The notes beneath the pieces are model-generated. The model made no database searches and was not told the origin of the DNA. It was given only the letters and a program-made list of their open reading frames with translations. A program made the position numbers and the translations under genes. From the NCBI GenBank assembly GCA_018895235.1, contig JAHIOM010000036.1, positions 1 through 50,628 of the forward strand: a stretch of 50,628 bases of DNA, written 5' to 3'. The stretch comes from Patescibacteria group bacterium. Its GTDB lineage: Bacteria; Patescibacteriota; Minisyncoccia; Minisyncoccales; Staskawiczbacteraceae. Of the stretch, positions 3,374 through 19,342 are shown one piece after another (the first letter of the stretch is position 1; each line of letters starts with the position of its first letter).

Positions 3374-4067
3374 TAAAAACCAAACAAGATTAGAAAATAT
3401 CATTCGTGAATATATTCAGCATTTGTTTTTATCGTCTCTTTATAAAATAAAGGGTTCGGAGAAATTGCTTTTTAAGGGCGGGACGGCCCTTAAAATTATT
3501 TACGGCAGCCCCCGTTTTTCTGAGGATTTGGATTTCGATGGGCAAAATATTTATCAATCTAAAGTAATTGACGATTTATTTTTGAAAACGATTTCAGAGC
3601 TCGAAAAAACTGGTATTGAAATTGGTCTAAAAGAAGCGAAAAAAACCACCGGCGGCTATTTAGGAATAATTAATTATCGTCTTTATGATATTTCAAAAGA
3701 AATGAAATTTGAAATTTCTTTGAGAAATGGAGGAAAAGCCGATTACGAGGTGACCACCATTGTTAGTGACTATCTGCCGTTATATTCCATTATCCATTCA
3801 CCTGGTAAAAAGATAGTTCAGGGAAAAATAAATGCCTTGTTAGACAGAGGAAAACCAAGAGATTACTATGATATTTATTTTATTCTACGTCATCCAGAAT
3901 TTCGCAGATTTATCAACAAAAATCAACTAAAAAGAATTGAAGAAAATTTAAAGAAAACAGAAATTAATTTTAAAAGAGAATTATCGGTTTTATTACCAGT
4001 AAGCCATCAGATGATTTTAAAAGATTTTGAAAAAACCCTGAGCCGAGAAATTAAAAAATATTTATAA
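3339..4067 (+). CDS. abiEii: Nucleotidyltransferase toxin, AbiEii/AbiGii family
   Basis: FKGGTALK...RFSEDLDF and RDYYD motifs. Confidence 0.9.
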   Translation: MLTLENLKEFTNKNQTRLENIIREYIQHLFLSSLYKIKGSEKLLFKGGTALKIIYGSPRFSEDLDFDGQNIYQSKVIDDLFLKTISELEKTGIEIGLKEAKKTTGGYLGIINYRLYDISKEMKFEISLRNGGKADYEVTTIVSDYLPLYSIIHSPGKKIVQGKINALLDRGKPRDYYDIYFILRHPEFRRFINKNQLKRIEENLKKTEINFKRELSVLLPVSHQMILKDFEKTLSREIKKYL

Positions 4068-4073
4068 AATTTT

Positions 4074-4742
4074 ATGAACCTAAAATCTTTGCCAAAAGCC
4101 GACCGCCCAAGAGAAAAACTAATTCAAAAAGGCCCTCAAAATTTAAAAGACGAGGAGCTTTTAGCGATTTTACTGGGTACGGGAGTTGAAGGCAAAAATG
4201 TGCTCGAAGTTGCCAAACAAATTTTAAGGAAATATTCTAAGAAAAGATTGTTAAAGATGCAATATAACGACCTGTCAAAAATTAAAGGAGTGGGACCAGC
4301 CAAGGCCTGTACTATTCTGGCAGCCCAAGAATTAATCAAAAGAGCTTTAGAAATAGGGGAGGAAACCCTACCCATTATCCGTTCAACTAAAGACGTCATC
4401 GCTCAATTTACTTATTTGCGAGATAAATCACGCGAACATTTAGCCGGGCTTTATCTTAACGCTCGAAATGAAATGGTTCACAAAAAACACCTTTTTGTCG
4501 GTACCTTAAATGCTAATTTAGTCCACCCGAGGGAAATTTTTGAGTATGCTCTTCTTGGAAACGCCGCTTCGGTGATTTTGGTTCATAATCACCCTTCCGG
4601 CGACCCCGAGCCGTCAGAAGATGATTTAGCAATTACCAAACGTATAATTGAAGCTGGCAAAATAATGGGAATTGACGTTTTAGACCACATAATAATCACC
4701 AAAACCAAAATTTTTAGTTTTAAAGAGAAAAAGTTAATATAA
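4074..4742 (+). CDS. radC: RadC family JAB-domain protein
   Basis: RPREKL, VHPREIF, HNHPSGDPEPSEDD, LDHIII. Confidence 0.95.
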   Translation: MNLKSLPKADRPREKLIQKGPQNLKDEELLAILLGTGVEGKNVLEVAKQILRKYSKKRLLKMQYNDLSKIKGVGPAKACTILAAQELIKRALEIGEETLPIIRSTKDVIAQFTYLRDKSREHLAGLYLNARNEMVHKKHLFVGTLNANLVHPREIFEYALLGNAASVILVHNHPSGDPEPSEDDLAITKRIIEAGKIMGIDVLDHIIITKTKIFSFKEKKLI

Positions 4743-4748
4743 AATAAT

Positions 4749-6737
4749 ATGCCACAAGATTTCTATTCTAAATTAGAGAAATTACTTAAAAAGGACTCTC
4801 GTTTTATAGACCAAGAGGGTGATTTATTAAAAAGTAATGTAATTGACGCGGCTTATAAGGCAGATAAAAAACTCGTTGAATTACTATTCTCTCAGAGAGA
4901 ATTTAAAAGCAAGTTCTTCAGTAAAATTAAAGACGTGCTAGTTTTTAATATTAATGATTTCGTAAATTATATTCAGGACAAAAATTTTCTGGCGGATTCT
5001 TATACTAAATATAGGAATAAAATTGGGTTGAATATTGATGGCAAGTTTTTGAACGAACGCAAAGAGGTGACACTTGTATGGCCTTTTAAAGATTGTATTT
5101 TAGAGGGTGGGATGACTAAAGAAGACGAAAAGCGAGAAGAAATATTTTTTAATGAAACTTTGGCCCAAGATGAAATTGATAAATTATTAGCGCCAAAGGT
5201 TTTAACTAATTGGAAAAGATATACTCAAAAAGGTGAAGAAAAAGTAAAAGAGTTAAAAAGAGATAAAGATGGGGTAACTCGGGAAAATTTAATTATCAAA
5301 GGCAATAATCTTCTGGCACTTCATTCCTTGAAACAACAATTTCAAGGAGAAATAAAGCTTATCTACATTGACCCACCGTATAATATCGGGGGAGATTTTC
5401 AATATAATGATAGTTTCAATCATTCTACTTGGCTGACTTTTATAAAAAATCGTTTAGAAATTGCAAGAGATTTATTGGCAGAAGATGGAGCAATTTTTGT
5501 CCAAATTGATCATCACGAAGTTTCTTATCTTAACGCATTAATGGACGAAGTTTTTGGTCCCGAAAATAAAGTTCAAATAATTTCATTAAAGGTATCTGCG
5601 GCATCGGGTTTTAAAGCGGTTAATCCTGGGCCAATTGACGTAACGGAATTTATTTTTTTCTATACAAAAAATAAAAATAATTTTATTTTCCAAAAAAATT
5701 ATATTGCCACCGGTTACCACGAAAATTACAATTTATATTTAGAAAAAGTAGGCAAAGTTGAAAATTGGAAATTAATTCCGCTTAAAGAAAAAGTTATTAA
5801 AGAAAATGGATATAAAAGCGAGAAAGAAATTAAACAAAAATATGGTGATGTTGCAGATATTATAATTAAAAAAATGATTTCTGATTTCGCTTTTACCCAT
5901 GCAGATAAAGTGGTAAGTATAAGAGATTTACACAAACCATCGGAAAAGACGAGACGCTTAAAAGAAGAATCTCGTAGGATTAGAGATAAAATTATTCCAT
6001 TGAAAAAAGCAGATGGCTCTTATACTTATTTGATAAATGGCGGAGTGATAGCTTTTTATTCTAATAAAATTAAAAACTTAGATGGAAAGCCAAGAGTTGT
6101 AGAACTGTTGACTAATTTTTGGAATCATATTTCTTGGGCAGGTATAGCTCGTGAAGGGGGAGTTAAACTTAGGAATGGCAAAAAGCCGGAAAAATTAATT
6201 AAGCAAATTATAGAAATTGCTGGGATTAAACAAGATGATGTGATTTTAGATTTTTTTCTAGGAAGTGGAACAACTTGTGCGGTCGCTCATAAATTAGGAA
6301 TACAATATATAGGAGTTGAACAGTTAGATTATAGCGATAATGATTCGATTGTTCGTTTAAAAAATGTTATCAATGGCGATCAATCCGGAATTTCGAAAGT
6401 CGTAAAATGGAAAAGCGGTGGAGATTTTGTTTATTGTGAGCTGATGAAATACAATGAGCTATTTGTAGAAGAAACCCAAAAAGCTAAAAATATAAAAGAG
6501 CTTTTGAAAATTTGGGAAGAGATGAAAGAAAAAAGTTTCTTGAATTATAACGTTGATATCAAAAAATTTGACGAGACAATTGATGAATTTAAAAAACTTT
6601 CTTTTGCGAGGCAAAAACATATCCTTTTTGAAATCCTCAACAAAAACCAACTTTATGTAAATTTTTCAGAAATTAATGACTCAGAATTTAAAGTTAATAA
6701 AGAGGATAAAGAGTTAAATAAAGAATTTTATGGATAA
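4749..6737 (+). CDS. mod: Type III restriction-modification methyltransferase (Mod)
   Basis: IYIDPPYN and DFFLGSGTT motifs, central TRD-like region. Confidence 0.9.
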   Translation: MPQDFYSKLEKLLKKDSRFIDQEGDLLKSNVIDAAYKADKKLVELLFSQREFKSKFFSKIKDVLVFNINDFVNYIQDKNFLADSYTKYRNKIGLNIDGKFLNERKEVTLVWPFKDCILEGGMTKEDEKREEIFFNETLAQDEIDKLLAPKVLTNWKRYTQKGEEKVKELKRDKDGVTRENLIIKGNNLLALHSLKQQFQGEIKLIYIDPPYNIGGDFQYNDSFNHSTWLTFIKNRLEIARDLLAEDGAIFVQIDHHEVSYLNALMDEVFGPENKVQIISLKVSAASGFKAVNPGPIDVTEFIFFYTKNKNNFIFQKNYIATGYHENYNLYLEKVGKVENWKLIPLKEKVIKENGYKSEKEIKQKYGDVADIIIKKMISDFAFTHADKVVSIRDLHKPSEKTRRLKEESRRIRDKIIPLKKADGSYTYLINGGVIAFYSNKIKNLDGKPRVVELLTNFWNHISWAGIAREGGVKLRNGKKPEKLIKQIIEIAGIKQDDVILDFFLGSGTTCAVAHKLGIQYIGVEQLDYSDNDSIVRLKNVINGDQSGISKVVKWKSGGDFVYCELMKYNELFVEETQKAKNIKELLKIWEEMKEKSFLNYNVDIKKFDETIDEFKKLSFARQKHILFEILNKNQLYVNFSEINDSEFKVNKEDKELNKEFYG

Positions 6738-7518
6738 TCAAACGGAAGAAGAAATTATAGAAAAAGTAAGTAAACACGAGTTTTATTTTGAAACTCCGCT
6801 TTACGATGTTATAGAAATTGGTAAATTGGATGATGATTTGTTCAAGGGTGATGTAGATGCGTATAACTCCGCTAGTGGTTTTGATACGACATACGAGATT
6901 GAAACAAGTCATATTGGTTATCACGATAATGATTATCAGGGTTTTTATACTGTAACTCTGACATGCAAAAGAAAAGGCGCTGATAAGCTAAGATTTTTTA
7001 TTTATAAAAACAAGGAAGTTGTTGTTAAACTTGGTCAGTACCCATCTCTGGTTGATATTCAATTTTCAGAAATTGGTAAAAAATATGACAGGTTCCTGTC
7101 TCAAGAAGCATTAAAAGAATTTAAGAGAGCAATAGGCCTTGTAACTCATGGTGTAGGTGTGGGTTCGTTTGTGTATTTACGAAGAATTTTTGAGAATTTG
7201 ATATATGAGGCATTTTATGAACATGAGAAAGAAACCGGTATTACCAAAGAAGAATTTTCTAAAAAAAGAATGGAGGATAAAGTTGATATTTTAAAGAAGT
7301 ATCTCCCAAGTCAGCTTGTCGCCATGAAGAGTATATATTCAATTCTAAGTAAGGGAATTCACGAATTGAACGAGCAAATATGTCTTAGATATTTTCCTGC
7401 ATTGAAATTGTCTATTGAATTGGTTTTGGAGCAAAAAATTGATATGGAAATTAAAGAAAAAAGAGATCGAGATGTAAAAAAGCAAATAGAAAGTATAAGC
7501 AAAGAAATTAGTAAATAA
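6730..7518 (+). CDS. Hypothetical protein with possible DUF4145/HEPN-like C-terminal domain, between mod and res
   Basis: 262 aa, overlaps the mod stop and ends 3 bp before res; segment FKRAIGL...VGSFVYLRRIFENLI...LSKGIHEL resembles DUF4145-type helical domains (from recall). Confidence 0.5.
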   Translation: MDNQTEEEIIEKVSKHEFYFETPLYDVIEIGKLDDDLFKGDVDAYNSASGFDTTYEIETSHIGYHDNDYQGFYTVTLTCKRKGADKLRFFIYKNKEVVVKLGQYPSLVDIQFSEIGKKYDRFLSQEALKEFKRAIGLVTHGVGVGSFVYLRRIFENLIYEAFYEHEKETGITKEEFSKKRMEDKVDILKKYLPSQLVAMKSIYSILSKGIHELNEQICLRYFPALKLSIELVLEQKIDMEIKEKRDRDVKKQIESISKEISK

Positions 7519-7521
7519 TTT

Positions 7522-10113
7522 ATGCCTCAGCAATTTCTCTACGAACAATTAGATGGTGCTTCAAAAATGGGGCTTCTTAAAAAGGAAGTTCCGGATTTTT
7601 TGGTTGAAAACTTGAATCCAAATTTTGAATTGAGAGGATATCAAAAAGAGGCATTCGCGAGATTTTTTCATTGCTATAATGGCGATTATGAGAATAAAGA
7701 ATATCCTCTACATTTTCTTTTTAATATGGCCACGGGTTCCGGAAAAACCTTAATAATGGCAGGGCTCATTTTATATTTATACGAGCAGGGCTATCGTAAT
7801 TTTTTATTTTTTGTTAATTCAACGAATATTATTGAAAAAACCAAAGACAATTTTTTGAATAATTTATCCAGTAAATATTTATTTAATGACAAGATATTTT
7901 TCGATAACAAACAGGTTCAAATTAAACAAGTTGACAATTTTGACGGAACGAGCAATCAAGATATCAATATTTGTTTTACTACTATCCAAAAGTTGCACGG
8001 TGATTTATACAACGAAAAAGAAAACTCTTTAACTTCGGAAGATTTTAAGAATAAAAAAATAGTTTTGCTTGCCGATGAGGCGCATCATAGCCAAGTACAA
8101 ACCAGAAATGGCCAAAGAGAAATATTTGAGAAGCCGAATTGGGAGAATACAGTTGAAAAGATTTTCAAACAAAATACCAGTAATCTACTTTTAGAATTTA
8201 CGGCCACACTTGATTTGTCTCAGAGAGAAATAAATGAAAAATATAGAAATAAGATTATTTATAAATACGATCTAAAAGAGTTTAGAAATGATGGCTATTC
8301 AAAAGACGTGGAATTGTTGCATACAGATACGGATAGGCGAGATAGGATAATTCAAGCCATAATCTTAAGTCAATACAGGCAGGAAGTTGCTGGTAAACAT
8401 GGAATTAATCTTAAACCGGTAATTCTATTTAAAGCCCAGAAAACAATAGCCCAATCGGAAGATAACAAGAAATTGTTTCATAAAATAATAGAAAGTCTGT
8501 CAGTAAAGGATATTGAGGGTACCAGAAAAAGAAGCAATATAGAAATTTTGCAAAAAGCGTTCAGTTTTTTTAAGGAGAATAAAATTAGTAATACTATTTT
8601 AGTTAAAAAGCTAAAAGATGGTTTTGCTGAAAACAAAACGTTAAGCGTTAACGAAGAACAAGAAAAGGAAAAATATCAATTACTTCTAAACTCTCTTGAA
8701 GATAAAAACAATCAAATTAGAGCAATTTTTGCGGTACAGAAGCTGAATGAAGGTTGGGATGTATTGAATTTATTTGATATTGTCCGGCTTTATGAAACAA
8801 GGGATGGTAAAAATAACAGGCCAGGGAAGACTACGATTTCCGAAGCTCAATTAATTGGCCGTGGCGCTCGTTATTTTCCATTTAAATTAAGTGAAACAGA
8901 TGATAAATTTAAACGCAAATATGATAAAGAATTACAAAATGAATTAAGAGTTCTGGAAGAGCTGCATTATCATAGCCATAATGAGTCAAGATATATATCA
9001 GAAATTAGGATAGCTTTAGTCGAAGAAGGGATGATTGATGAAAACGAATTGGAGGTCGAATTAAAAATGAAAGAAGAGTTCAAAAAAACACCTTTTTATA
9101 AATCTGGACTAATTTATGCAAACGAAAAAATAAAGAGAAGTTTTGAAAAAGTTAAATCCCTTGATGATTTGGGCGTGAAGAAAAAAAATATAGTGACTCG
9201 AATTATGTCTGGCGGCGGTATGACAACTGCATTATTTGAAAAAGGTTTAGTTATGAAAGAAGGAGTACAAAGAGTTAGGGAGGATTTTAAGATTAAAAAT
9301 TTTGAACCACATATTGTTAAAAATGCTTTAACTAGGAATGAATTTTTTAATTTTTCTTCGTTAAAGAATTACTTTCCGAAATTAACCTCGATTAGAGAGT
9401 TTATTGAAAGTGATAAATATCTAGCTAATTTTGGCATTACTTTCGAGATGGAAAGGTATGCGACTGCGATAGATAATTTAGAGAAATTCAAAGCCATTAT
9501 TAAGTTATTAGAGCAAATAGAAGGAGAAATAAAAGAAAATTTAACAGAATATATTGGGAGCGAAGAATTTACTCCGACTTTTATAAAAAATCACAGAATT
9601 TCTAAAGATAAGAAAATTAAAGTTAAAAAAGACAGCGAGAGATTAGATGGACAGGAAGAATTTTTAGAGGATAAAGATTGGTATGTCTTTAATGCGAACT
9701 ATGGCACTAGTCAGGAAAAAGATTTTGTTAAAATGTTTGCTAGCCAGATAAATGATTTGCGAAGGAAATTTAAGCAGATCTATTTATTCCGCAACGAAAA
9801 ACAATTGAAAATTTATAACTTTAGCAATGGCCAAGCATTTGAACCTGATTATCTTTTATTCCTAGTTAATAAAGTAGGAAATAGCATTACTTATCAGTTG
9901 TTTTTAGAGCCCAAGGGTAAGTATCTAGTCGAAGGCGAAAAATGGAAGAATCAATTTTTAGAGAACATTAGAGATAAATTCAAAGATAAAATTCTGGAAT
10001 TTTCAAAATCAAAAAAATATAAAATCACTGGGGTACCATTTTATCAGAGTGAAAATGAAAATGAGTTTAAGAGAAAATTATTGGAAACCATAGGAATAAA
10101 CTCGAAAAATTAA
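7522..10113 (+). CDS. res: Type III restriction endonuclease/helicase (Res)
   Basis: MATGSGKT, DEAHH, QLIGRGARY, C-terminal FEPDY...FLEPKG nuclease motif. Confidence 0.9.
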   Translation: MPQQFLYEQLDGASKMGLLKKEVPDFLVENLNPNFELRGYQKEAFARFFHCYNGDYENKEYPLHFLFNMATGSGKTLIMAGLILYLYEQGYRNFLFFVNSTNIIEKTKDNFLNNLSSKYLFNDKIFFDNKQVQIKQVDNFDGTSNQDINICFTTIQKLHGDLYNEKENSLTSEDFKNKKIVLLADEAHHSQVQTRNGQREIFEKPNWENTVEKIFKQNTSNLLLEFTATLDLSQREINEKYRNKIIYKYDLKEFRNDGYSKDVELLHTDTDRRDRIIQAIILSQYRQEVAGKHGINLKPVILFKAQKTIAQSEDNKKLFHKIIESLSVKDIEGTRKRSNIEILQKAFSFFKENKISNTILVKKLKDGFAENKTLSVNEEQEKEKYQLLLNSLEDKNNQIRAIFAVQKLNEGWDVLNLFDIVRLYETRDGKNNRPGKTTISEAQLIGRGARYFPFKLSETDDKFKRKYDKELQNELRVLEELHYHSHNESRYISEIRIALVEEGMIDENELEVELKMKEEFKKTPFYKSGLIYANEKIKRSFEKVKSLDDLGVKKKNIVTRIMSGGGMTTALFEKGLVMKEGVQRVREDFKIKNFEPHIVKNALTRNEFFNFSSLKNYFPKLTSIREFIESDKYLANFGITFEMERYATAIDNLEKFKAIIKLLEQIEGEIKENLTEYIGSEEFTPTFIKNHRISKDKKIKVKKDSERLDGQEEFLEDKDWYVFNANYGTSQEKDFVKMFASQINDLRRKFKQIYLFRNEKQLKIYNFSNGQAFEPDYLLFLVNKVGNSITYQLFLEPKGKYLVEGEKWKNQFLENIRDKFKDKILEFSKSKKYKITGVPFYQSENENEFKRKLLETIGINSKN

Positions 10114-10116
10114 TTG

Positions 10117-10155
10117 ACCCCAGTTAAATATTGGCTTTGCCAATTTAACGGGGCA
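10117..10155. repeat. Bulged-hairpin mini-element, family A, copy 1
   Basis: ACCCC-A-GTTAAATATTGGC-TTT-GCCAATTTAAC-GGGGCA; near-identical copy at 10962-11000. Confidence 0.8.
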
Positions 10156-10217
10156 AGGAATAAAAATTATGGGAAATTTGTTAAATTTTAACTCAAACAA
10201 ATTACAAACAAAAGGCC

Positions 10218-10298
10218 TTGACAGGGGTCCTGAGTTTGCTATAATTATAATAGTTAATCCCACCGCCCTCTCGGTTTACCGGGACGGCGGTTTTTTTT
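10218..10298 (+). promoter_or_regulatory. Promoter plus terminator-ended leader (putative sRNA) preceding an NYN gene
   Basis: TTGACA(10218)-16 bp-TATAAT(10240) with TGC extension; hairpin ACCGCC..GGCGGT 10262-10291, then a T-run directly before the ATG. Confidence 0.65.
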
Positions 10299-10859
10299 AT
10301 GAAAAGAGCATTCGTCTTTATTGACGGCGGTAATTTTTATTTTAAATTAAAAGATTTAACATCTAAATTAGATGGAAAATATAGTTTGCTTGATTTTGAA
10401 TTTAGAAAATTTGCCGAATGGTTAGTTACGCCAAACGAATTATTAGAAATTAGGTATTATCTCGGAGCGATTAAGCGCGAACGCAACAATCCAAAGAGCG
10501 AACAGTTATATGCAAATCAGCAAAAACTTATTGGAAAACTCCAGCAGCAGAATATTATTATCACCTTGGGTCATGTTATCCGCCACCCAGACAAAACCCA
10601 CCACGAGAAAGGTGTCGATGTCCGTTTAGCGGTAGAAATGATTAAATTTGCCAGAGAGAATAAGTATGATATTGCTTATTTGGTGAGTTCTGATACGGAT
10701 TTAGTAGCAGCGGTTGAAGAAGTCCGGGCCTTTGGCAAAAAAGTTCAATATGTAGGAATTCCTAAGGGCCAATCGTATGGTCTTTCAACTGTTGCTGACG
10801 ATGTTAGATTATTACGGCCGGAAGAAATAGAACAATTTTTACCTCCGTCGCTTATATAA
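10299..10859 (+). CDS. NYN domain (LabA/DUF88, PIN-like) putative RNase
   Basis: FIDGGNF, EKGVDVRLAVEM, SSDTDL acidic motifs. Confidence 0.9.
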   Translation: MKRAFVFIDGGNFYFKLKDLTSKLDGKYSLLDFEFRKFAEWLVTPNELLEIRYYLGAIKRERNNPKSEQLYANQQKLIGKLQQQNIIITLGHVIRHPDKTHHEKGVDVRLAVEMIKFARENKYDIAYLVSSDTDLVAAVEEVRAFGKKVQYVGIPKGQSYGLSTVADDVRLLRPEEIEQFLPPSLI

Positions 10860-10904
10860 AAATTAAGAAAAATAGCGTTAGCTCTATTTTTAACAAAAAC
10901 TCGA

Positions 10905-11041
10905 ACCCTTCGATGGTTCGACAGGCTCACCACAGACAAACTCAGGGCAAGAAATTAATTGACCCCAGTTAAATATTGGCTTCGTCAATTTAACAGGGCA
11001 AGGGAACCCTAGTAGAAGAAACGAAGTTTCTCTACGGGGTA
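10905..11041. repeat. Stack of four mini-elements at one junction
   Basis: ACCCTTCGA..CAAACTCAGGGCA (10905-10949) containing TGGTTCGACAGGCTCACCACA (10914-10934); family A copies at 10962-11000 and 11006-11041. Confidence 0.8.
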
Positions 11042-11084
11042 AGTAAAAATTATGGAAGATAAAATTTTTGGAGATAAATAATCC

Positions 11085-12926
11085 ATGAAAGAAAAAATTA
11101 GGAAAATAAAAAACAGAAAAAATTGGCATTTCGACAAATACTTGGAGAAAATTAAAGTCTTAGCGGTTTCACGTCGAACCGTTATTTTAGTAGTAATTAT
11201 TTCTTTTCTAACTGTTGCAGGAATTAGTTATGGCGCAATTGGCTACCATAAAATATCAAAAGCGATAGAACAAGCCAGACAATTTACAAAAGAAGAAAAA
11301 TTTGAGGAAGCGATTAATGAACTAGGTCTCGCTCAAATTAGCGGGGTTGTTAAAATAGGAATAAAAAAGCAGGAAATTAATAATGAAATAGAAAAAAATA
11401 AAAAGCTTATTGAAGAAAAATCAAAATATAATAATGCATTGAGCGAACTTAATGAAGAAAGTTATCAAAAGGCAATTAGTTCTTTTTCAAATATTACTGA
11501 AGACTCTCTTTATTATCAAAAAGCCCAAACCAAAATAGAAGAAGCAAAGAGGAAAATGGTAGAAGGGAAACTTTCTGAAGAACAAGTAGCTCGAAAATCA
11601 GCAGAAGTAAAAGCGAAACAAGAAGAATTTGAAAAAAATTTAAAAGAGAAGCAACTAGCGGATAAGGCTGCGGAAGAAAAAATGATGAATACTGACAATG
11701 ATGGCGATAGCCTAACTTATAGAAGAGAATTAGAGTTAGGAACTTCTGATTGGAATATTGATTCTGATGGTGATGGAATAATTGATAGTAAAGACACTCA
11801 TCCAGCTGGTGGAGGACGAAATATACCCCAAACATTTGCTTGGAATTATGGCGGATATAATTGGACTTTTACAACATCAATTGCCGAAGATTGGTACGAC
11901 TATTATAAGGCTAAACCTCGGCTTCCCGCGACTAGCGTAGAGTATATAACTTATAATGACCCATTTATACAAAGAATAAGTAATAAAATACTTGAAGAGT
12001 CTAAAAAAGATAATCTTTGCGAAGCTTGTTTGGCCGCCGCATTTATACAAAGTCTTCCATATATCGAGGATGTATATACCGGTTACGACGAATACCCGAA
12101 ATATCCAATTGAAACCTTTTTCGAAAAGAACGGAGATTGCGAGGACACTAGTTATCTTACAGCTTCTATTATTTTAGCAATGAATATAGATGCTGTTCTT
12201 ATTTTACTCCCAGGACATATGGCGGTTGGTGTTTGGGCAAATTGTGATAATCCTGGCACATATTATAAATTAGGGGATAAATGTTACTACTATATTGAAA
12301 CAACAGGAGATGGTTTTAAATTGGGTGATATACCAAATGAATATCGTTATACTGCCGCCACATTAGTAAAAATTCCTTCTGGAGAAAATATTGCCGTAGC
12401 TCCACAATATAAAAAGCCGTGTGACCCATCGCCGTACTTCATCGGATATTATTATAGCGGAGCTGATTTCTATTCAGATGCCCAATGCAATTATCAAACC
12501 AATTGCTTGCCATGGTCTAGTTATGTTTCAGCTTCTTCTCTTTCCGGATATTATTATAATTCTCAGTTAGAACAAACATATCATGACTCATCTTGTACTC
12601 AGATAGCAGTTAAGGGATGCTATAAATCAAAAACCTATTCAGGATATTTTTACAAATCAGGACTTGCCTGGTATTACGATTCTCAATGTACTCAAACATA
12701 TCAATCTATGACCTGTAGCTATCCCTATTCCTATGTTTATTCTTGTACAACTGAAAGCGGCTATAACTCTAAAAAAAGCAACTGTGATTATTATGCTTCG
12801 TCAGAGTATCTTAAGTCTTTAGCAGAAAGTTGTTATGCCGGACTCGATAAGTGTAGAAGTGATATAAATGAGTACCAAAGTAAGCTGAATGAATATAATG
12901 CGTGTACGGCCAGGAAAGAATATTAA
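11085..12926 (+). CDS. Membrane-anchored multidomain protein: helical/coiled-coil, Ca-binding TSP3-like repeat, transglutaminase-like domain, Cys/Tyr-rich repeats
   Basis: TM segment; DNDGDSL/DSDGDGIID; GDCEDTSYL..GHMAVG; three YY..D..C repeats near the C-terminus. Confidence 0.7.
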   Translation: MKEKIRKIKNRKNWHFDKYLEKIKVLAVSRRTVILVVIISFLTVAGISYGAIGYHKISKAIEQARQFTKEEKFEEAINELGLAQISGVVKIGIKKQEINNEIEKNKKLIEEKSKYNNALSELNEESYQKAISSFSNITEDSLYYQKAQTKIEEAKRKMVEGKLSEEQVARKSAEVKAKQEEFEKNLKEKQLADKAAEEKMMNTDNDGDSLTYRRELELGTSDWNIDSDGDGIIDSKDTHPAGGGRNIPQTFAWNYGGYNWTFTTSIAEDWYDYYKAKPRLPATSVEYITYNDPFIQRISNKILEESKKDNLCEACLAAAFIQSLPYIEDVYTGYDEYPKYPIETFFEKNGDCEDTSYLTASIILAMNIDAVLILLPGHMAVGVWANCDNPGTYYKLGDKCYYYIETTGDGFKLGDIPNEYRYTAATLVKIPSGENIAVAPQYKKPCDPSPYFIGYYYSGADFYSDAQCNYQTNCLPWSSYVSASSLSGYYYNSQLEQTYHDSSCTQIAVKGCYKSKTYSGYFYKSGLAWYYDSQCTQTYQSMTCSYPYSYVYSCTTESGYNSKKSNCDYYASSEYLKSLAESCYAGLDKCRSDINEYQSKLNEYNACTARKEY

Positions 12927-13135
12927 TTTCTCTGTTTCGTGTTTTTAAAATTAGAAAAATCATCAAGGAAGATTACGGAAAAGAAATTTCTGATAAAGAA
13001 GTTAGTAAAATAGGCAACGGCCTCATTAATTATTTTAAATTATCTTTGGGAAATTAACAGCAGGAGAAAATTTTATAAAAAATAGTGTTAACCATGGTTT
13101 TAGTTGGAAAAATTTTCTTTAAAATTTAAAAAGAA

Positions 13136-13645
13136 ATGAAATTAAAAATCATTCCGTATAATAAAAACGTTTCGGAAAGATTTAAAAAAGAGAAGAAAAA
13201 GATTTTAAGAGTTGTTAGAAGGTGCAAGGTTTGGCATATTGGAAGTACTGCGACACCAGGTTTAGGAGGCAAAGGAATTGTTGATATAATGCTTGGAATA
13301 AAAAATTGGAAATATCCGGAAAGTACAATTAAAAAATTAAAAAAGATAGGCTTTAAACACATTCATTCTAAAGAAAAGGGAAGAATTTTTTTGAGCAAAA
13401 ACAAGACGCTTTCTTTGGGTAATATCCACATTCATATTGTCAAAATAGGAAGCAAAACCCAAAAAGAGATTTTGTATTTTAGAGATTATTTAAGGAAAAA
13501 TAAAAAAGAGGCTGAAAGATATTTTAATTTTAAAAAGAAATGGCTAAAAGAATCTTGTAGAAATAGAAAAAAATACAAAAAACTAAAATCTAAATATATT
13601 AACAAGGTTTTATATGGCAAGAAATTAATTAAAAATAATAAATAA
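13136..13645 (+). CDS. GrpB family protein
   Basis: HIGSTATPG..GKGIVDIM, HIHIV, FRDYLR. Confidence 0.85.
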   Translation: MKLKIIPYNKNVSERFKKEKKKILRVVRRCKVWHIGSTATPGLGGKGIVDIMLGIKNWKYPESTIKKLKKIGFKHIHSKEKGRIFLSKNKTLSLGNIHIHIVKIGSKTQKEILYFRDYLRKNKKEAERYFNFKKKWLKESCRNRKKYKKLKSKYINKVLYGKKLIKNNK

Positions 13646-13646
13646 T

Positions 13647-13958
13647 ATGGAATTTAAAGAAATTCAAAAAAAGGTAATTGATAACGCCATCAATTATGGG
13701 AAAAAATACAACGTAAAAATTGATGAAGATTTTGCATTATTTAAATTATATGAAGAGGTGGGGGAATTGGCTCAAGATGTTTTAATTCATAGAAAAAAAT
13801 GCAGACCCGAAAAATATCTTCCGGAAGAAAAATCAAAAGAAGAATTAGCAAAAGAACTTGCAGACGTTTTAGGAATGATAATAGTAAATGCTCATCTTTT
13901 AGACATTGATTTAGAGGATGCAATAAATAAAAAGTGGATTAACAAAGAAAAAAGTTAA
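13647..13958 (+). CDS. MazG-like NTP pyrophosphohydrolase, copy 1
   Basis: KLYEEVGELAQ...ELADVL acidic motif. Confidence 0.8.
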   Translation: MEFKEIQKKVIDNAINYGKKYNVKIDEDFALFKLYEEVGELAQDVLIHRKKCRPEKYLPEEKSKEELAKELADVLGMIIVNAHLLDIDLEDAINKKWINKEKS

Positions 13959-14175
13959 AATAATCAAAATTTAGGCCGAAGTTGAATTATGAAGAAGTAT
14001 TCGTCAAATCGTGCGCAAAAAGGAAAAACTGCTTACCGGACGCCAAGCCGGTTTATTTATAAAATGACGCTTAAATCTATAAAAAATAAATGCAGAATTC
14101 CTCGATAAACTAAACAAAGTTAAACTTAATCAAATTAAGTACAAGTCGCCGAATTATAGAAAAGAGAATTAATTG

Positions 14176-14240
14176 ACCCATCACTGCCAACCCACCACTA
14201 CCAAAAATTGGTGTAGGGGTAAAAATTTGGTGTGAGGGCG
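14176..14240. repeat. Family A element with a sibling nested in its loop
   Basis: ACCCATCACTGCCA[ACCCACCACTACCAAAAATTGGTGTAGGGGTA 14190-14221]AAAATTTGGTGTGAGGGCG. Confidence 0.75.
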
Positions 14241-14317
14241 AGGTCGAAGTTTAAGAAATTTATGATAAAATTAAAGTAATGACTGCCCTTTTTCTAAAAA
14301 ATCAAATAACAACCAAC

Positions 14318-14866
14318 ATGATTTATGTTTTTATAGACGCATCAAATGTTTGGAACGCGGTCAAGTCGGTAAAAAAGTTTATTGAATACAAAACTCTTAA
14401 AGATTATTTTAGGAAAAATTTTAACGCAGACAAGGTTGAAATTTTTTATTACGACGCTTATCCAAAAGCCGGAACAAGAGATTATGACTTGGGTGGAAAG
14501 CATAAGTTCTTTACTTATCTTAAGAAAGGGCTTGGGTTTACCGTAAGAAAAAAAGAGTTAAAAAGAATCTCTGTTATTGGCGAGAGCGGAGAATCTATTA
14601 TAGAAAAAGGAAATATGGATGTGGAAATAACGATTGACGCAATGCATAACATTCATAAATATAACATAGCCATCTTTTTTAGCGGTGACGCTGATTTTCT
14701 TGCACTGGTGAATTATCTGAAAAATAACGGTAAAAAGGTCTATATTTTTTCGTCAAAAGACAATATTTCTCACGAACTAAAAACTGGCGGGGATGGTTAT
14801 TTTGATTTGAAAGATATACATGAATTTTGGGGTAAAGATTTAAAACACCGCGAAAAATTAGTATAA
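14318..14866 (+). CDS. NYN domain putative RNase, copy 2 (divergent; ORF track start 14279)
   Basis: FIDASN, KGNMDVEITID, SGDADF. Confidence 0.9.
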   Translation: MIYVFIDASNVWNAVKSVKKFIEYKTLKDYFRKNFNADKVEIFYYDAYPKAGTRDYDLGGKHKFFTYLKKGLGFTVRKKELKRISVIGESGESIIEKGNMDVEITIDAMHNIHKYNIAIFFSGDADFLALVNYLKNNGKKVYIFSSKDNISHELKTGGDGYFDLKDIHEFWGKDLKHREKLV

Positions 14867-14867
14867 A

Positions 14868-14975
14868 CGAAAACCACCCTCAATTAAGAGGGTGGCCCTA
14901 GGATGTATAACCCTAACGGTTCTATGGAAGAACCGAAAGACGATTTAAGTATAGCAAGCCATAAGGGTTTGTCAA
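14868..14975 (-). ncRNA. Putative small RNA transcription unit convergent with NYN copy 2
   Basis: Minus-strand TTGACA(14975-14970)-16 bp-TATACT(14953-14948) with TGC extension; internal hairpins; terminal hairpin CCACCCTC/GAGGGTGG plus T-rich tail. Confidence 0.55.
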
Positions 14976-14992
14976 GAGTTGAAAATAATCCA

Positions 14993-15032
14993 ACCCCAGT
15001 AGTAGTCCCGTTAAGCGGGACACTACGTGGCA
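14993..15032. repeat. Family A element
   Basis: ACCCC-A-GTAGTAGTCCCG-TTAAG-CGGGACACTAC-GTGGCA, followed by AGTAAAATTATG. Confidence 0.75.
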
Positions 15033-15041
15033 AGTAAAATT

Positions 15042-15371
15042 ATGGAAAAAGAAGGACAAAAAAACCAAATTATTCCAAAAATTGAAGAGTTTTTTAAAGT
15101 ACCAGAGCGAGTGGCTGATAAAATTAAAATTATTGCGGAAAAGGTTAGGGGTGGTTATGTTGTGATTGAAACTAGACCTCGTTGGGATGGAACTCCTGGG
15201 CCTTGGACAAGAAGTCCAGTTGCTAAATTTGTTTTTCATAATCCCTCTTTGTCATGGAGACTTTATTGGATGCGTGCTTCTGGGAAATGGTGGTTTTATG
15301 GAACTTATAAAACATTAGATAAAGTATTGAAAATAATAAAAGGAGATAAAGACGGCTGTTTTTGGGGTTAA
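15042..15371 (+). CDS. DUF3024-like protein
   Basis: PVAKFVF...WRLYWMRASGKW; start placed at the AAAATTATG context. Confidence 0.7.
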   Translation: MEKEGQKNQIIPKIEEFFKVPERVADKIKIIAEKVRGGYVVIETRPRWDGTPGPWTRSPVAKFVFHNPSLSWRLYWMRASGKWWFYGTYKTLDKVLKIIKGDKDGCFWG

Positions 15372-15384
15372 AAATAAAAAAATA

Positions 15385-16290
15385 ATGAAAAAGTTTTTTG
15401 AGAAAAATAAAATATTTTTGGCGATTGTGGTTGGAGCTTTAATTATTGGCGGAGCGATTTATTTATCCAGTATAAATAGGGGAGAGGTTGCTGAGAAATC
15501 ACCGGCGACAGGAGAAAATTGCCAGAATATCCCCGAACTTCCGGATAATACCTTAAAATTGGCGACGAAAATTATTGACGGCGATACTTTTTTGATTGAG
15601 GGCGGCGCTTCAGTAAGAATTTTGGGAATTGACGCTGACGAAAGGGGATATCCTTGTTATGATGCAGCGAAAAATAAATTGGAAGAACTTATTTTGAACA
15701 AAGAAGTAAAATTAGAAAAAGGTCCGGAAAATATCGACCAGTACTGCCGCTATCTAAGATATGTTATTTCTGATGGTCAGAATATCTCTTTGGAGCTGGT
15801 AAAAGAGGGGATGGCAGTGGCGAGATTTTCTCCAGAAGGCACAAAATACCGCGAAGAAATCACTCAAGCCGAAAAAGAAGCCAAAGAGAATAAAGTTGGC
15901 TGCAAGTGGTCTGCCTCCATTGTTCCAGACAGCGGAGTTATGGAGAATAAAGAATTTCAATGGGAAAAGTTAACCCCGGAATTAACGGGACTAAAGGTTA
16001 TTGGCGCCTGTAGCGCCGGTAATTATTACGGGAGGGAGGTAATTGTTGAGGGAAAAATTGCTGATGCTTATTGTTCAAAAACCAATACTGTATTTTTAAA
16101 TTTTGAAAAACCATATCCGAATCATTGCTTTGTCGGAGTGATTTTCAGTTCAGACCAGTATAAATTTGTCCAAAATCCTGAAAATTATTACTCAAATAAA
16201 AATGTTAGAATAAGAGGTGAAATTAAAGAATACCAAGGAAAGCCGGAAATTATTCTAAATGATCCGTCTCAAATCGAAATCGGCAAGTAA
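15385..16290 (+). CDS. Membrane-anchored thermonuclease (SNase) with C-terminal OB-like domain
   Basis: IIDGDTF, VRILGIDADE, DQYCRYLRYV; C-terminal IRGEIKEYQGKPEII. Confidence 0.85.
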   Translation: MKKFFEKNKIFLAIVVGALIIGGAIYLSSINRGEVAEKSPATGENCQNIPELPDNTLKLATKIIDGDTFLIEGGASVRILGIDADERGYPCYDAAKNKLEELILNKEVKLEKGPENIDQYCRYLRYVISDGQNISLELVKEGMAVARFSPEGTKYREEITQAEKEAKENKVGCKWSASIVPDSGVMENKEFQWEKLTPELTGLKVIGACSAGNYYGREVIVEGKIADAYCSKTNTVFLNFEKPYPNHCFVGVIFSSDQYKFVQNPENYYSNKNVRIRGEIKEYQGKPEIILNDPSQIEIGK

Positions 16291-16301
16291 AAATTAAAAA
16301 T

Positions 16302-16961
16302 ATGAAAAACCCAGAACAAGTTCCGAATCAAGAATTAGAGATTAATCCAAAGAAAGAAATAAGCCCAGAGTTAGTTAGGGCTATAGAACAAGAAGCTCTT
16401 CATGTAGATGATAAAGTTAATATACTTTTAACTAAAGCTGGCTTAAAACCAGCCTCGGAGATTACTCTAACTATAAGGACTTGGAACGAGGAAGAAAATA
16501 ACAAGCATATGGCAGAAGACGATATTCAAAGAGATGTTTGGATTATTAAAGAATTAGGGATACCGGTTCAATTCGGAAGCAGAGAAGTTGTTGAGATAGT
16601 GGAAGATAACAAAAAATATCATCGCGAAGAAATACGAATTTTAATAGGGAAAACCCAAAAAGATTTAGATTTTCTTATAGAAGCGCAGAAATCTAAAGAT
16701 AATGAACTATTGGGTAGGGCGTATGGATTTCCGTCCACCGCCGTAGATGCCTGGGTGGGGAAGGGGAAAAAACTTGACGTTAGAAGGTTGCCTAAAAAGA
16801 TTAGAGAGAGCGAAGCGATGCTTTTTTCTTCTCCAACGCTTTCGGCAGATAATTGGCGAAAGGAAATTGAACAGGGGCAACGAGACGCAGATTATATCAA
16901 GGGTATAAGCCCTTTTATTTATAAAGAATTGATAGAGATGATGAAAAGAAGCAGGAAATAA
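16302..16961 (+). CDS. Hypothetical protein
   Basis: 219-aa ORF containing GRAYGFPSTAV. Confidence 0.6.
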   Translation: MKNPEQVPNQELEINPKKEISPELVRAIEQEALHVDDKVNILLTKAGLKPASEITLTIRTWNEEENNKHMAEDDIQRDVWIIKELGIPVQFGSREVVEIVEDNKKYHREEIRILIGKTQKDLDFLIEAQKSKDNELLGRAYGFPSTAVDAWVGKGKKLDVRRLPKKIRESEAMLFSSPTLSADNWRKEIEQGQRDADYIKGISPFIYKELIEMMKRSRK

Positions 16962-17024
16962 CTTTTTGTACCATTGAAAAGTTGAAAAGGGGTCAGGAGC
17001 CTTTTCTTAATAAAAATTAATTAA

Positions 17025-17062
17025 GCCCCGCAAAATAGCAGTGATACTGCCATCGCGGGGCA
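17025..17062. repeat. Family A-like hairpin element
   Basis: GCCCCGC..GCAGT-GAT-ACTGC..GCGGGGCA, between AAAATTAATTAA and AGTAAAAATTATG. Confidence 0.65.
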
Positions 17063-17072
17063 AGTAAAAATT

Positions 17073-17744: not shown

Positions 17745-17753
17745 TTTAAAAAT

Positions 17754-18161: not shown

Positions 18162-18204
18162 TAAAAAGAAAATATTGTTAGCTCTGGTTTTAATAAAAAC
18201 TCGG

Positions 18205-18226
18205 ACCCTTCGACAAGCTCAGGGCA
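18205..18226. repeat. REP-like element ACCCTTCGACAAGCTCAGGGCA (family B)
   Basis: Matches the outer element at 10905-10949 and the variant at 19252-19272. Confidence 0.75.
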
Positions 18227-18251
18227 AGAAATTAATTGAGGAATAAAATTT

Positions 18252-19310: not shown

Positions 19311-19342
19311 AGGAAATAAAATAAATTTTAATTTAGAATAAT

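What the first reader, a model, noticed from the sequence alone, without database searches (positions are those of the whole stretch)
10218..10859. NYN RNase gene preceded by promoter, short RNA and terminator (type III TA-like layout)
Seen: a consensus promoter, then about 45 nt forming a long GC-rich hairpin and a T-run ending at the ATG. Known: type III TA loci (ToxIN, CptIN, TenpIN) place an RNA antitoxin and a terminator before an RNase toxin, usually as tandem repeats, and NYN is a PIN-like RNase fold. Inference: a single-unit RNA antitoxin or attenuator controlling an NYN nuclease. There are no tandem repeats, so this is not a classical type III locus.
Basis: partly seen in the sequence, partly recalled or inferred. 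Interest (0 to 1): 0.62.

Follow-up and report, generated by a model that had tools for sequence, protein, structure and literature searches.

The report
Conserved hairpin RNA gating NYN nuclease
A strong promoter makes a conserved hairpin RNA of about 47 bases that stops at its own terminator right before a predicted RNA-cutting enzyme (NYN); this RNA-enzyme pair recurs as a movable unit across ultra-small Patescibacteria, I found no description of it, and it probably works as a nuclease kept in check by its own RNA.

Summary
It is one copy of a conserved two-part module.

- **Layout:** a 12/12 sigma-70 promoter (10218-10245) is followed by a 10-nt tail, a 12-pair GC-rich hairpin (10262-10291), U8 (10291-10298) and the NYN start codon (10299).
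- **Conservation:** the same layout precedes every close homologue examined (68 loci, 45-95% protein identity). The promoter is kept, UAA and CAC are invariant in the tail, and the stem covaries strongly.
- **Distant homologues:** those at 36-50% identity carry variant versions of the RNA. In 12 of 19 the nuclease also has its own -10 box 6-9 nt before the start codon, so there the RNA is a separate gene.
- **Exclusivity:** the RNA occurs once per genome, and 14 of the 18 class-sample hits lie directly before this NYN gene; the rest are orphans or contig-end cases. Rfam has no such family, and I found no paper describing it.
- **Accessory and mobile:** about 5% of genomes in the class carry it. 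Synteny is absent, the unit is about 730 bp, and orphan RNAs and broken genes exist. Here it lies beside AbiE and type III restriction-modification genes.

[quoted passage not shown] It is not a member of the ToxIN, CptIN or TenpIN families. Toxicity and RNA-protein binding are untested.

The parts
10107..10158 (+). Left copy of a 52-nt junction repeat (AAATTAATTGA + CCCC...GGGG hairpin + GCAAGG) that brackets the cassette
   Evidence: Direct-repeat family D4, 94% identical to 10952-11003. The junction word recurs at 10107, 10952, 18229, 20085 and 21752, and with one mismatch at 14166 and 17014. It occurs 12 times in the whole genome.
10160..10217 (+). 5' part of the transferable block, upstream of the -35 box. 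It is A/T-rich and starts with an ATG in the lineage's usual start context.
   Evidence: DNA homology to the closest loci (L004-L012) begins at 10155-10185, while the flanks are unrelated. A frame through promoter and hairpin is open in only 38 of 69 loci, so it is probably not a gene.
10218..10245 (+). Sigma-70-type promoter: TTGACA, 16 nt, TG-n-TATAAT
   Evidence: 12/12 match. In 69 loci, 59 score at least 10/12 and 51 have TGn. The -10 box ends 5-6 nt before RNA position 1 in 65 of 69.
10252..10261 (+). Single-stranded 5' tail of the RNA (AGUUAAUCCC), with invariant UAA. The start of transcription is inferred, not mapped.
   Evidence: T4, A5, A6, C10 and C12 are invariant in 68 leaders. The tail plus the first stem bases (10252-10264) are identical to 13 nt of this genome's own 16S rRNA helix 41 strand.
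10262..10291 (+). Hairpin: 6-bp conserved base, Y.C mismatch, U-A and C-G pairs, variable tip, loop UUUA
   Evidence: Fold. Covariation: pair 13/65 is UA in 48 and CG in 21 sequences; pair 16/62 is CG 45, UG 14, GC 7, UA 2; 98.1% of cells are paired. Median stability in 69 loci is -18.8 kcal/mol.
10291..10298 (+). U8 run. Together with the hairpin it forms an intrinsic-terminator signal that ends at the start codon.
   Evidence: Sequence. At least 5 T in the 8 nt after the stem in 67 of 69 loci. In L061 the conserved hairpin lacks the T-run and a second hairpin with a T-run follows it.
10299..10859 (+). NYN (LabA-like) nuclease gene, 186 aa
   Evidence: PF01936 E 1.7e-20. PADLOC HEC-09 E 1.7e-19 and NYN 4.9e-13. 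D9, N12, D107 and S130-D134 are invariant in 21 homologues. AlphaFold2 pLDDT is 86.6, and the best solved matches are 2qip and the MARF1 NYN domain 5yaa.
10863..10893 (+). 3' end of the transferable block: a weak A/T-rich hairpin (AAAAATAG...CTATTTTT)
   Evidence: Homology to the closest loci ends at 10861-10893. It belongs to repeat family D6.
10952..11003 (+). Right copy of the 52-nt junction repeat
   Evidence: (family D4).

Best explanation
This is a self-contained accessory cassette of about 730 bp that encodes a nuclease together with its own small RNA.

**Proposed mechanism**
- A near-consensus promoter starts transcription at about 10252.
- The first 47 nt fold into a conserved RNA: a 10-nt single-stranded tail (UAA...CAC), a 12-13-bp hairpin with a conserved base and one conserved mismatch, and a U-run.
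- Hairpin plus U-run form an intrinsic terminator. Most transcripts therefore end as the short RNA, and only read-through transcripts carry the NYN frame.
- The AUG lies 8 nt after the stem, in a genome that uses no Shine-Dalgarno sequence, so translation is throttled as well.
- The RNA, made in large excess, is the dedicated partner of the nuclease. It binds the protein and keeps it inactive, and it may also feed back on its synthesis. This is the logic of type III toxin-antitoxin systems and of AbiF/RCd22.
- When RNA supply fails, for example on transcription shut-off during phage infection or on loss of the cassette, the nuclease is freed.

**Shown here:** the sequence features; their conservation and covariation; the near-exclusive pairing with this NYN clade; an independent RNA transcription unit in distant relatives; the accessory and mobile character of the module.

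**Inferred:** the start site, termination efficiency, RNA excess, binding, inhibition and toxicity.
For: - **Conserved layout:** 68 loci at 45-95% protein identity share the layout. Twenty of 20 further homologues at 36-50% identity carry variants of it.
- **Covariation:** strong in the close set and in the broad set.
- **Exclusivity:** one copy in the own genome. One per locus in 602 kb, always before NYN. Present in 18 of 301 genomes of the class, 14 directly before the homologue. Four of the 5 strongest hits among the phylum-sample genomes checked lie beside an NYN gene.
- **Strong promoter kept in front of a strong terminator:** this makes sense only if the short RNA itself is wanted.
- **Recognition and termination are separable:** in L061 they sit on two different hairpins.
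- **Separate RNA gene in distant relatives:** 12 of 19 have a TATAAT box scoring at least 5/6 that ends 6-9 nt before the start codon (exactly 6 nt in 10 of the 12), downstream of the RNA's terminator. That implies a separate RNA gene plus a leaderless NYN mRNA.
- **Paralogues:** a second NYN in this genome (contig C10) has the same layout with a different RNA. A third (14279-14866) has a convergent, separately promoted RNA of about 75 nt. A purely cis role cannot explain that arrangement.
- **Asymmetry:** close homologues never lack the RNA, yet the RNA survives without the gene in G264, G160 and G166.
- **Accessory and mobile:** no synteny. The block is limited to about 10160-10893. NYN is 93-95% identical to L004 while flanking genes are 45-83% identical and lie elsewhere in the genome. 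Broken copies exist.
- **Context:** AbiEi/AbiEii, RadC and a type III restriction-modification system lie immediately upstream.
- **Precedent:** RCd22 with AbiF (PMC12373285).
Against: - No expression, toxicity or binding data exist.
- The protein is unusually well conserved (70-94% identity in hundreds of metagenome-assembled genomes). That is atypical for toxins and would fit a constrained housekeeping-type enzyme.
- Neighbours in 80 loci are mostly housekeeping genes, with only a few defence or mobile genes.
- The only tested relative by profile, HEC-09, gave no phage protection in E. coli.
- In the window's own subtype the RNA and the mRNA share one promoter, so a purely cis role is not excluded.
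- No copy was found on viral contigs.
Confidence: 0.45

Rival explanations
1. The element is purely a cis-acting autoregulatory leader. The NYN protein binds or cuts the 5' end of its own transcript, which favours termination or decay and blocks initiation. Known parallels are RNase III and RNase E acting on their own leaders, Regnase-1 acting on its own stem-loop, and ribosomal proteins binding leaders that mimic their rRNA site. On this view the short RNA is only a by-product.
For: In the window's subtype the RNA and the gene share one promoter, and the AUG abuts the terminator. The first 13 nt of the leader are identical to a stretch of the genome's own 16S rRNA, the 3' strand of helix 41, which recalls autoregulation by rRNA mimicry. 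The very high protein conservation fits an enzyme acting on a conserved cellular RNA.
Against: Distant relatives separate the RNA unit from the gene with a terminator and a second -10 box. A paralogue has its RNA convergent and downstream. Orphan RNAs keep an intact promoter after the gene is lost. A near-consensus promoter followed by a strong terminator is a wasteful way to obtain low expression. Leader variants do not track each genome's own 16S variants.
Confidence: 0.3
2. The RNA is a substrate or cofactor rather than an inhibitor. NYN would mature it, or use it as a specificity or scaffold element to act on other RNAs.
For: There is tight co-inheritance, and RNA subtypes are clade-specific. 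NYN enzymes are ssRNA endonucleases with an exposed active site and little sequence specificity of their own (PMC11346440; PMC5499597).
Against: Sites complementary to the 11-nt tail occur in the genome no more often than expected by chance: 13 found against 12.5 expected with at most one mismatch. The variable part of the RNA is paired with itself, so it cannot serve as a guide.
Confidence: 0.1
3. The element is a generic intrinsic terminator, an insulator or a stabilising 5' hairpin, with no specific recognition.
For: Its shape is that of an ordinary terminator. The weak Rfam hits (PyrR at 24 bits, PyrG leader at 21 bits) fall on the terminator part only.
Against: The invariant tail bases, the conserved mismatch and the U-A pair are kept across 45-95% protein identity. 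An insulator would lie upstream of the promoter, not downstream of it. In L061 the conserved hairpin is kept although another hairpin does the terminating. The layout occurs in 1 of 486 long genes here.
Confidence: 0.05
4. The element acts at the DNA level, as a folded single-strand recombination site of the attC or IS200/IS605 type that moves the cassette.
For: The cassette is mobile, encodes no recombinase, and lies in an array of cassettes separated by a shared junction.
Against: The hairpin lies inside the transferred block, at a fixed distance from a conserved promoter and before a T-run, which points to RNA. The block boundaries are at about 10160 and 10893, not at the hairpin. G-U pairs are tolerated (UG in 14 sequences at one pair and 8 at another), and these would be mismatches on the opposite DNA strand.
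Confidence: 0.03

Closest known systems
Type III toxin-antitoxin systems (ToxIN, CptIN, TenpIN, AbiQ/antiQ)
   Same: The order of parts is the same: constitutive promoter, antitoxin RNA, intrinsic terminator, nuclease gene expressed by read-through. The RNA is expected to be in excess. The unit is small, mobile and patchily distributed.
   Different: The RNA is a single hairpin unit bounded by the transcription start and the terminator. It is not a tandem array cut out by the toxin. The protein has an NYN (PIN-like) fold, not the ToxN/AbiQ fold. Toxicity and complex formation are unknown.
AbiF (Abi_2, HEPN) with its 5' non-coding RNA RCd22 / abiF motif in Clostridioides difficile (PMC12373285)
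   Same: A structured non-coding RNA with a terminator sits directly upstream of a nuclease-type toxin. It lowers the toxin's expression and neutralises it, in cis and in trans, by direct binding. It has no type III-style repeat array.
   Different: The protein fold differs (HEPN against NYN) and the RNA motif is unrelated. RCd22 carries two motif copies and is longer. The host lineage and the prophage context also differ.
DUF3800-associated RNA motifs, drum and skipping-rope (Weinberg et al. 2017, PMC5737381)
   Same: Protein families of nuclease type are each accompanied by small conserved RNAs. These often end in terminators, lie on either side and in either orientation, and have different structures for different protein clades. 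UAA is noted there as recurrent, and UAA is invariant here.
   Different: None of those motifs is linked to NYN, and none matches here. Their function is also unknown.
HEC-09, an NYN/MARF1-like candidate defence gene embedded in Hma systems (bioRxiv 10.1101/2024.01.29.577857; PADLOC PDLC04163)
   Same: It is the best profile match of the protein (E 1.7e-19). It is an NYN nuclease found inside or beside defence systems.
   Different: HEC-09 is described with an extra N-terminal helix-turn-helix-like region and without any RNA partner. It gave no protection against the phages tested. Here the gene lies beside a type III restriction-modification system, not inside an Hma system.
Autoregulatory leaders of RNases and ribosomal proteins (rnc, rne, Regnase-1; rRNA-mimic leaders)
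   Same: A structured 5' leader is recognised by the product of its own gene. Here there is a 13-nt identity to 16S rRNA.
   Different: Those leaders are not separate transcription units with consensus promoters, and they are not inherited as mobile cassettes.

Membership tests
NYN domain nucleases (Pfam PF01936, LabA-like / COG1432 group) | Profile match above the curated cut-off | tested here: met
   74.5 bits against a cut-off of 24.2; E 1.7e-20.
NYN domain nucleases (Pfam PF01936, LabA-like / COG1432 group) | Conserved acidic active-site residues | tested here: met
   D9, D107, D132 and D134 (plus N12, S130, S131) are invariant in 21 homologues.
NYN domain nucleases (Pfam PF01936, LabA-like / COG1432 group) | PIN-like alpha/beta fold | tested here: met
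   AlphaFold2 pLDDT 86.6 and pTM 0.85. Foldseek gives 2qip at E 3.4e-10 (TM 0.68/0.76) and the MARF1 NYN domain 5yaa at E 1.6e-7.
Type III toxin-antitoxin systems (ToxIN / CptIN / TenpIN) | Toxin of the ToxN/AbiQ-type endoribonuclease fold | tested here: not met
   The only Pfam family is NYN. The only PADLOC families are HEC-09 and NYN. The fold is NYN.
Type III toxin-antitoxin systems (ToxIN / CptIN / TenpIN) | Antitoxin encoded as tandem direct repeats upstream of the toxin | tested here: not met
   No tandem repeat in 10114-10298. There is one RNA unit per locus in 69 loci.
Type III toxin-antitoxin systems (ToxIN / CptIN / TenpIN) | Intrinsic terminator between the RNA and the toxin gene | tested here: met
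   The hairpin plus U8 ends at the ATG. The T-run is kept in 67 of 69 loci. This is a sequence signal only; termination was not measured.
Type III toxin-antitoxin systems (ToxIN / CptIN / TenpIN) | The toxin is toxic, is neutralised by binding the RNA, and processes the RNA | not testable with these tools
   This needs expression, rescue and binding assays.
HEC-09 (PADLOC candidate defence family) | Profile match and embedding in a defence system, with a defence phenotype | tested here: inconclusive
   The profile match is E 1.7e-19 over positions 1-171 of 203, and no curated cut-off exists. The gene lies next to a type III restriction-modification system and AbiE. The family itself showed no defence in tests.
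Any Rfam 15 RNA family | Covariance-model match at the gathering score | tested here: not met
   The window has only two tRNAs at gathering score. The best sub-threshold hit on the leader is PyrR at 24.4 bits against a gathering score of 54, and it covers the terminator part only.

The most novel reading that the evidence does not exclude
Patescibacteria carry a so far undescribed and widespread class of RNA-antidote nuclease modules. Each solitary NYN ribonuclease would be held in check by its own strongly transcribed hairpin RNA of about 40-75 nt. The RNA is encoded either as a terminated leader, as here and in the C10 paralogue, or as a convergent gene, as at 14279-14975. This would be a new branch of RNA-based toxin-antitoxin or abortive-infection systems that share no ancestry with ToxIN.

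A bolder sub-variant, at about 0.1 on its own, is that the 5' tail of the RNA is a decoy. It would copy the nuclease's cellular target, the helix-41 strand of 16S rRNA, to which it is identical over 13 nt in this genome.
Probability: 0.3. Interest if true: 0.85.

Novelty: new variant of a known kind. Interest (0 to 1): 0.72.

Why it matters
- **NYN function:** bacterial LabA-like NYN proteins are abundant, yet their function is listed as unknown (PMC5499597). A dedicated, covarying RNA partner gives a direct experimental handle on them: a 47-nt RNA and a 186-aa protein.
- **Toxin-antitoxin biology:** if the RNA restrains the nuclease, RNA-antidote systems would extend to a new toxin fold and to a single-hairpin antidote. 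It would also add a defence or addiction module to the Candidate Phyla Radiation, whose immunity is poorly known.
- **RNA biology:** the work adds an RNA family absent from Rfam.
- **A wider pattern:** together with the convergent RNAs next to paralogous NYN and DUF3800 genes, it points to a general rule of "nuclease plus private small RNA" in these reduced genomes.

Tried and rejected
- **Rfam:** the gathering-score and E-value modes gave only sub-threshold, terminator-type hits.
- **Literature:** no paper describing an RNA partner of an NYN nuclease turned up among the papers listed and read: NYN with Patescibacteria (0 papers), with DUF3800 (1 paper, not read) and with type III toxin-antitoxin. 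Weinberg et al. 2017 has no NYN motif, and its supplements are not held.
- **Conserved partner protein:** none. Neighbours in 80 loci are unrelated to one another. The 137 immediate neighbours are mostly housekeeping genes, with a few integrase, restriction-modification, HicA and AbiE genes. Enrichment in defence islands is therefore not shown beyond this window.
- **Upstream ORF through the promoter and hairpin:** open in only 38 of 69 loci, so probably a by-product.
- **Shine-Dalgarno sequestration by the stem:** rejected, because this genome does not use Shine-Dalgarno sequences (13% against 10% background).
- **Guide-RNA idea:** sites complementary to the tail occur at chance level.
- **16S mimicry:** there is an exact 13-mer in this genome, but only an 8-mer core in others, and no genome-by-genome covariation. 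I keep it only as a lead.
- **Phage carriage:** only two distant NYN hits on viral contigs.
- **Solved structures by sequence:** none.
- **Broad RNA model R2:** too unspecific below about 35 bits, where hits are generic terminators away from NYN genes.
Full report
**1.

The window is contig C36 of an 837-kb, 40-contig genome with about 36% G+C (33% around the finding). Its closest related locus is from a Gribaldobacteria (Patescibacteria/CPR) assembly.

- **Promoter.** TTGACA lies at 10218-10223. After 16 nt comes TGcTATAAT, with the -10 box at 10240-10245. This is a 12/12 match with an extended -10, the only perfect one in 9000-12000.
- **RNA.** From about 10252 it would read AGUUAAUCCC, followed by a hairpin at 10262-10291. 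The hairpin has 6 bp, a C.C mismatch and 6 bp, with loop UUUA. Then comes U8 (10291-10298), then ATG at 10299.
- **Gene.** The ORF 10299-10859 (186 aa) is an NYN domain protein (PF01936, E 1.7e-20).
- **No repeats.** There is no tandem repeat.
- **Statistics.** The fold statistic is modest on its own (z = -2.9). In this genome a strong hairpin abutting a T5+ run within 16 nt of a start codon is found in 1 of 486 long ORFs.

**2. The element is conserved, covaries and is tied to this gene**

The protein has hundreds of relatives at 70-94% identity in Parcubacteria-type assemblies. I fetched 80 loci from species-representative genomes.

- **Close relatives.** All 68 loci at 45-95% identity show the same layout upstream: promoter, nGTTAATCYCAC, a stem YGCC-Y-UC...GA-C-GGCR, a T-run and the start codon.
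- **Promoter.** It scores at least 10/12 in 59 of 69 loci. TGn is present in 51. The -10 box ends 5-6 nt before RNA position 1 in 65 of 69.
- **Invariant bases.** These are UAA and two C in the tail, GA after the tip, and one further G (G39, at the 3' foot of the stem).
- **Covariation.** In the basal stem, one pair is UA in 48 and CG in 21 sequences with none broken. Another pair is CG 45, UG 14, GC 7 and UA 2. Overall 98.1% of cells pair against 86.7% in shuffles. There are 81 double-change cells against 20.7. Sliding the partner columns by 1 to 3 positions lowers pairing to 25-65%.
- **Terminator signal.** Median hairpin stability is -18.8 kcal/mol, and 67 of 69 loci have at least 5 T in the next 8 nt.
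- **Uniqueness.** A covariance model (R1) finds exactly one copy in the own genome (65 bits; the next hit has E 1.4). It finds exactly one per locus in 602 kb of fetched DNA, always before the NYN gene.
- **Databases.** Rfam has no matching family. None of the papers I listed or read describes an RNA partner of NYN.

**3. The family is wider, and in distant members the RNA is a separate gene**

- **Variant RNAs.** Twenty of 20 further homologues at 36-50% identity also have a promoter followed by a variant RNA: YUAAC or UAUGA, then CAC, a bulged hairpin and a U-run. So do the 37-43% loci L073 and L078-L083. A joint alignment still pairs in 88% of cells against 69% in shuffles.
- **Separate units.** In these relatives 20-150 nt separate the terminator from the start codon. 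In 12 of 19 a TATAAT box scoring at least 5/6 ends 6-9 nt before the start codon, and in 10 of those 12 it ends exactly 6 nt before it. By my rough estimate chance would give about 1 in 12. This is the signature of a leaderless mRNA with its own promoter. It makes the small RNA an independent transcription unit.
- **Two hairpins in L061.** The conserved hairpin has no T-run there, and a second hairpin with a T-run follows it. Recognition and termination are therefore separable, and both are kept.

**4. Paralogues in the same genome**

The genome has five NYN genes.

- The one on C10 has the same layout with a different RNA: TTGACA, 17 nt, TATAAT, a tail, CCCCAGC...GCUGGGG, UUUUAUUUUU and GUG.
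- The one at 14279-14866 has a convergent promoter (14975 to 14948, 11/12 with TG). A terminator hairpin follows at 14899-14870, giving an RNA of about 75 nt that ends at the gene's stop codon.
- The one on C7 lies upstream of a polynucleotide-phosphorylase-like gene (my reading of the flanking sequence), has no such RNA, and looks like the housekeeping copy.
- In G160 an orphan copy of the present RNA is followed by another promoter, a different RNA, a terminator and a divergent NYN.

Different NYN clades thus carry different private RNAs, in different geometries. That is hard to explain by cis attenuation alone. It parallels the DUF3800, drum and skipping-rope RNAs (PMC5737381).

**5. The module is accessory and mobile**

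- **Prevalence.** In an even sample of 301 genomes of the class, R1 occurs in 18 (6%), once each. Fourteen of these lie directly before the homologue. One lies at a contig end, and three have lost the gene.
- **Orphans.** In G264 the promoter and RNA are intact (63 bits) while the ORF has an internal deletion of about 145 codons. In G160 only nine codons remain. In G166 a remnant precedes a gene I read as rmuC-like.
- **The reverse case is absent.** No close homologue lacks the RNA.
- **Broken copies.** Several copies carry in-frame stops or are split.
- **Phylum level.** Four of the 5 strongest hits to the broad model among the phylum-sample genomes I checked for NYN genes lie beside one. Weaker hits are generic terminators.
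- **No synteny.** Neighbours differ from locus to locus. In related gene clusters the cassette sits at different positions (L031, L033, L034, L056).
- **Block boundaries.** DNA homology to the closest loci is confined to about 10160-10893.
- **Discordant identity.** NYN is 93-95% identical to L004. L004's flanking genes match other contigs of this genome at 45-83%.
- **Local context.** The block is bracketed by a 52-nt repeat (10107-10158 and 10952-11003). The core of that repeat, AAATTAATTGA, punctuates a run of unrelated same-strand genes from 10.1 to 21.8 kb. Immediately upstream lie AbiEi/AbiEii, RadC and a type III restriction-modification system.
- **Elsewhere.** Neighbours in other genomes are mostly housekeeping genes, with only a few integrase, restriction-modification, HicA and AbiE genes. 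No copy was found on viral contigs.

**6. The protein**

The AlphaFold2 model is confident (pLDDT 86.6). It matches the LabA-like structure 2qip and the MARF1 NYN domain. The acidic active-site residues are invariant.

The best defence-library match is HEC-09, an NYN candidate that gave no protection against the coliphages tested. Characterised NYN enzymes are Mn-dependent ssRNA endonucleases with little sequence specificity (PMC11346440). The bacterial LabA-like group is listed as function unknown (PMC5499597).

**7. Mechanism**

The genome uses no Shine-Dalgarno sequences, and start regions are A/U-rich. A 12-bp GC-rich stem ending 8 nt before the AUG should therefore hinder initiation. NYN synthesis would be throttled twice, by termination and by an occluded start, behind a promoter kept near consensus. 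That design makes sense if the short RNA itself is the main product and is needed in excess over the protein.

Four further observations point the same way: the separate RNA units in distant relatives, the convergent RNA of a paralogue, the orphan RNAs, and the accessory, mobile character of the module. The best-supported reading is therefore an RNA-nuclease pair in which the RNA restrains the nuclease. [quoted passage not shown] I put this at 0.45.

The main rival, at 0.30, is a purely cis autoregulatory leader. The two are not exclusive. The other rivals are less likely, for the reasons given in their entries: RNA as substrate or cofactor, a generic terminator, and a DNA recombination site.

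**8. An unexplained lead**

The first 13 nt of the RNA (AGUUAAUCCCACC) are identical, in the same sense, to a stretch of this genome's own 16S rRNA. That stretch is the 3' strand of helix 41, which I place at about E. coli positions 1268-1282. It is the only other exact genomic hit of the 11-mer, where 0.34 are expected.

In eight other genomes that carry the module, only an 8-mer core (UAAUCCCA) is shared at best. Leader variants do not follow each genome's own 16S variants. Target mimicry, either as a decoy or as rRNA-mimic feedback, remains possible but is not supported by covariation.

**9. Comparison and novelty**

The locus works like a type III toxin-antitoxin or AbiF module but is not a member of ToxIN, CptIN or TenpIN. 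The toxin fold and the tandem repeats were both tested and not met. It is a member of the NYN (PF01936) family. The RNA is not in Rfam.

Earlier unchecked notes from this scan describe the same kind of pair in other genomes. I treat them as agreement, not as evidence. I class the finding as a new variant of a known kind: a nuclease with a private RNA and a terminator.

**10. Limits**

The transcription start is inferred from promoter geometry. Prevalence figures come from filtered searches that score few candidates per genome, so they are lower bounds.

Noticed in passing
window 14279-14975: A second NYN gene (195 aa) has a convergent promoter on the minus strand (14975 to 14948, TTGACA-16-TATACT with TG). 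A terminator hairpin follows at 14899-14870. This would give an RNA of about 75 nt ending at the NYN stop codon.
   Followed up: partly
G000 contig C10, NYN paralogue at about 4837-5427 (minus strand): A third NYN paralogue (196 aa, GTG start) has the same layout of promoter, tail, hairpin and U-run abutting the start codon, but with a different RNA sequence (CCCCAGC...GCUGGGG).
   Followed up: partly
window 10107-21762: The word (R)AAATTAATTGA carries stop codons in all three frames. It recurs in the same orientation (five exact, two one-mismatch copies) in this stretch, where I checked between unrelated same-strand genes (NYN x2, GrpB, MazG x2, SNase, HD and others). That is 5 of the 12 exact copies in the genome. 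It often comes with a CCCC...GGGG hairpin and a GGGGCAAGTAAAAATTATGG start context. The region looks like an array of gene cassettes.
   Followed up: partly
window 2732-10113: A defence island lies directly upstream: AbiEi (2732-3373), AbiEii (3339-4067), RadC (4074-4742), a type III Mod methylase (4749-6737), an unknown 262-aa ORF (6730-7518) and a type III Res subunit (7522-10113).
   Followed up: yes
window 10252-10264 and G000 contig C20 (16S rRNA gene, L118 965-977): The first 13 nt of the leader RNA are identical, in the same sense, to the helix-41 3' strand of the genome's own 16S rRNA. Other genomes share at most an 8-mer core, without covariation.
   Followed up: partly
L098-L117 (distant NYN homologues): After the small RNA's terminator, 12 of 19 loci have a TATAAT-like box ending 6-9 nt before the start codon (exactly 6 nt in 10 of them). 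This suggests leaderless NYN mRNAs.
   Followed up: yes
whole genome G000: There is no Shine-Dalgarno signal upstream of 486 long ORFs (13% against 10% background). Start regions are simply A-rich.
   Followed up: yes
window 23610-23671, 31173-31235, 33530-33591, 33794-33855, 35690-35751: A repeat of about 62 nt combines a CUCGCC-UUCG-GGCGAG hairpin with a TTGATT...TATAAT promoter-like part. It is present in both orientations.
   Followed up: no
window 13641-13940 and 20145-20444: Two copies of a MazG-like gene are 93% identical over 300 nt, lying within the cassette array.
   Followed up: no
window 48690-48841 and 50341-50492: 152-nt inverted repeats, 99% complementary, flank a 519-aa minus-strand ORF next to a tRNA gene (48622-48694). 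G+C rises to 45% here. This is probably an insertion sequence.
   Followed up: no
L018 (c41-c19-c42 on both sides), L038, L051: In some genomes the NYN cassette is flanked by duplicated gene blocks. This recalls the 52-nt flanking repeats in the window.
   Followed up: no
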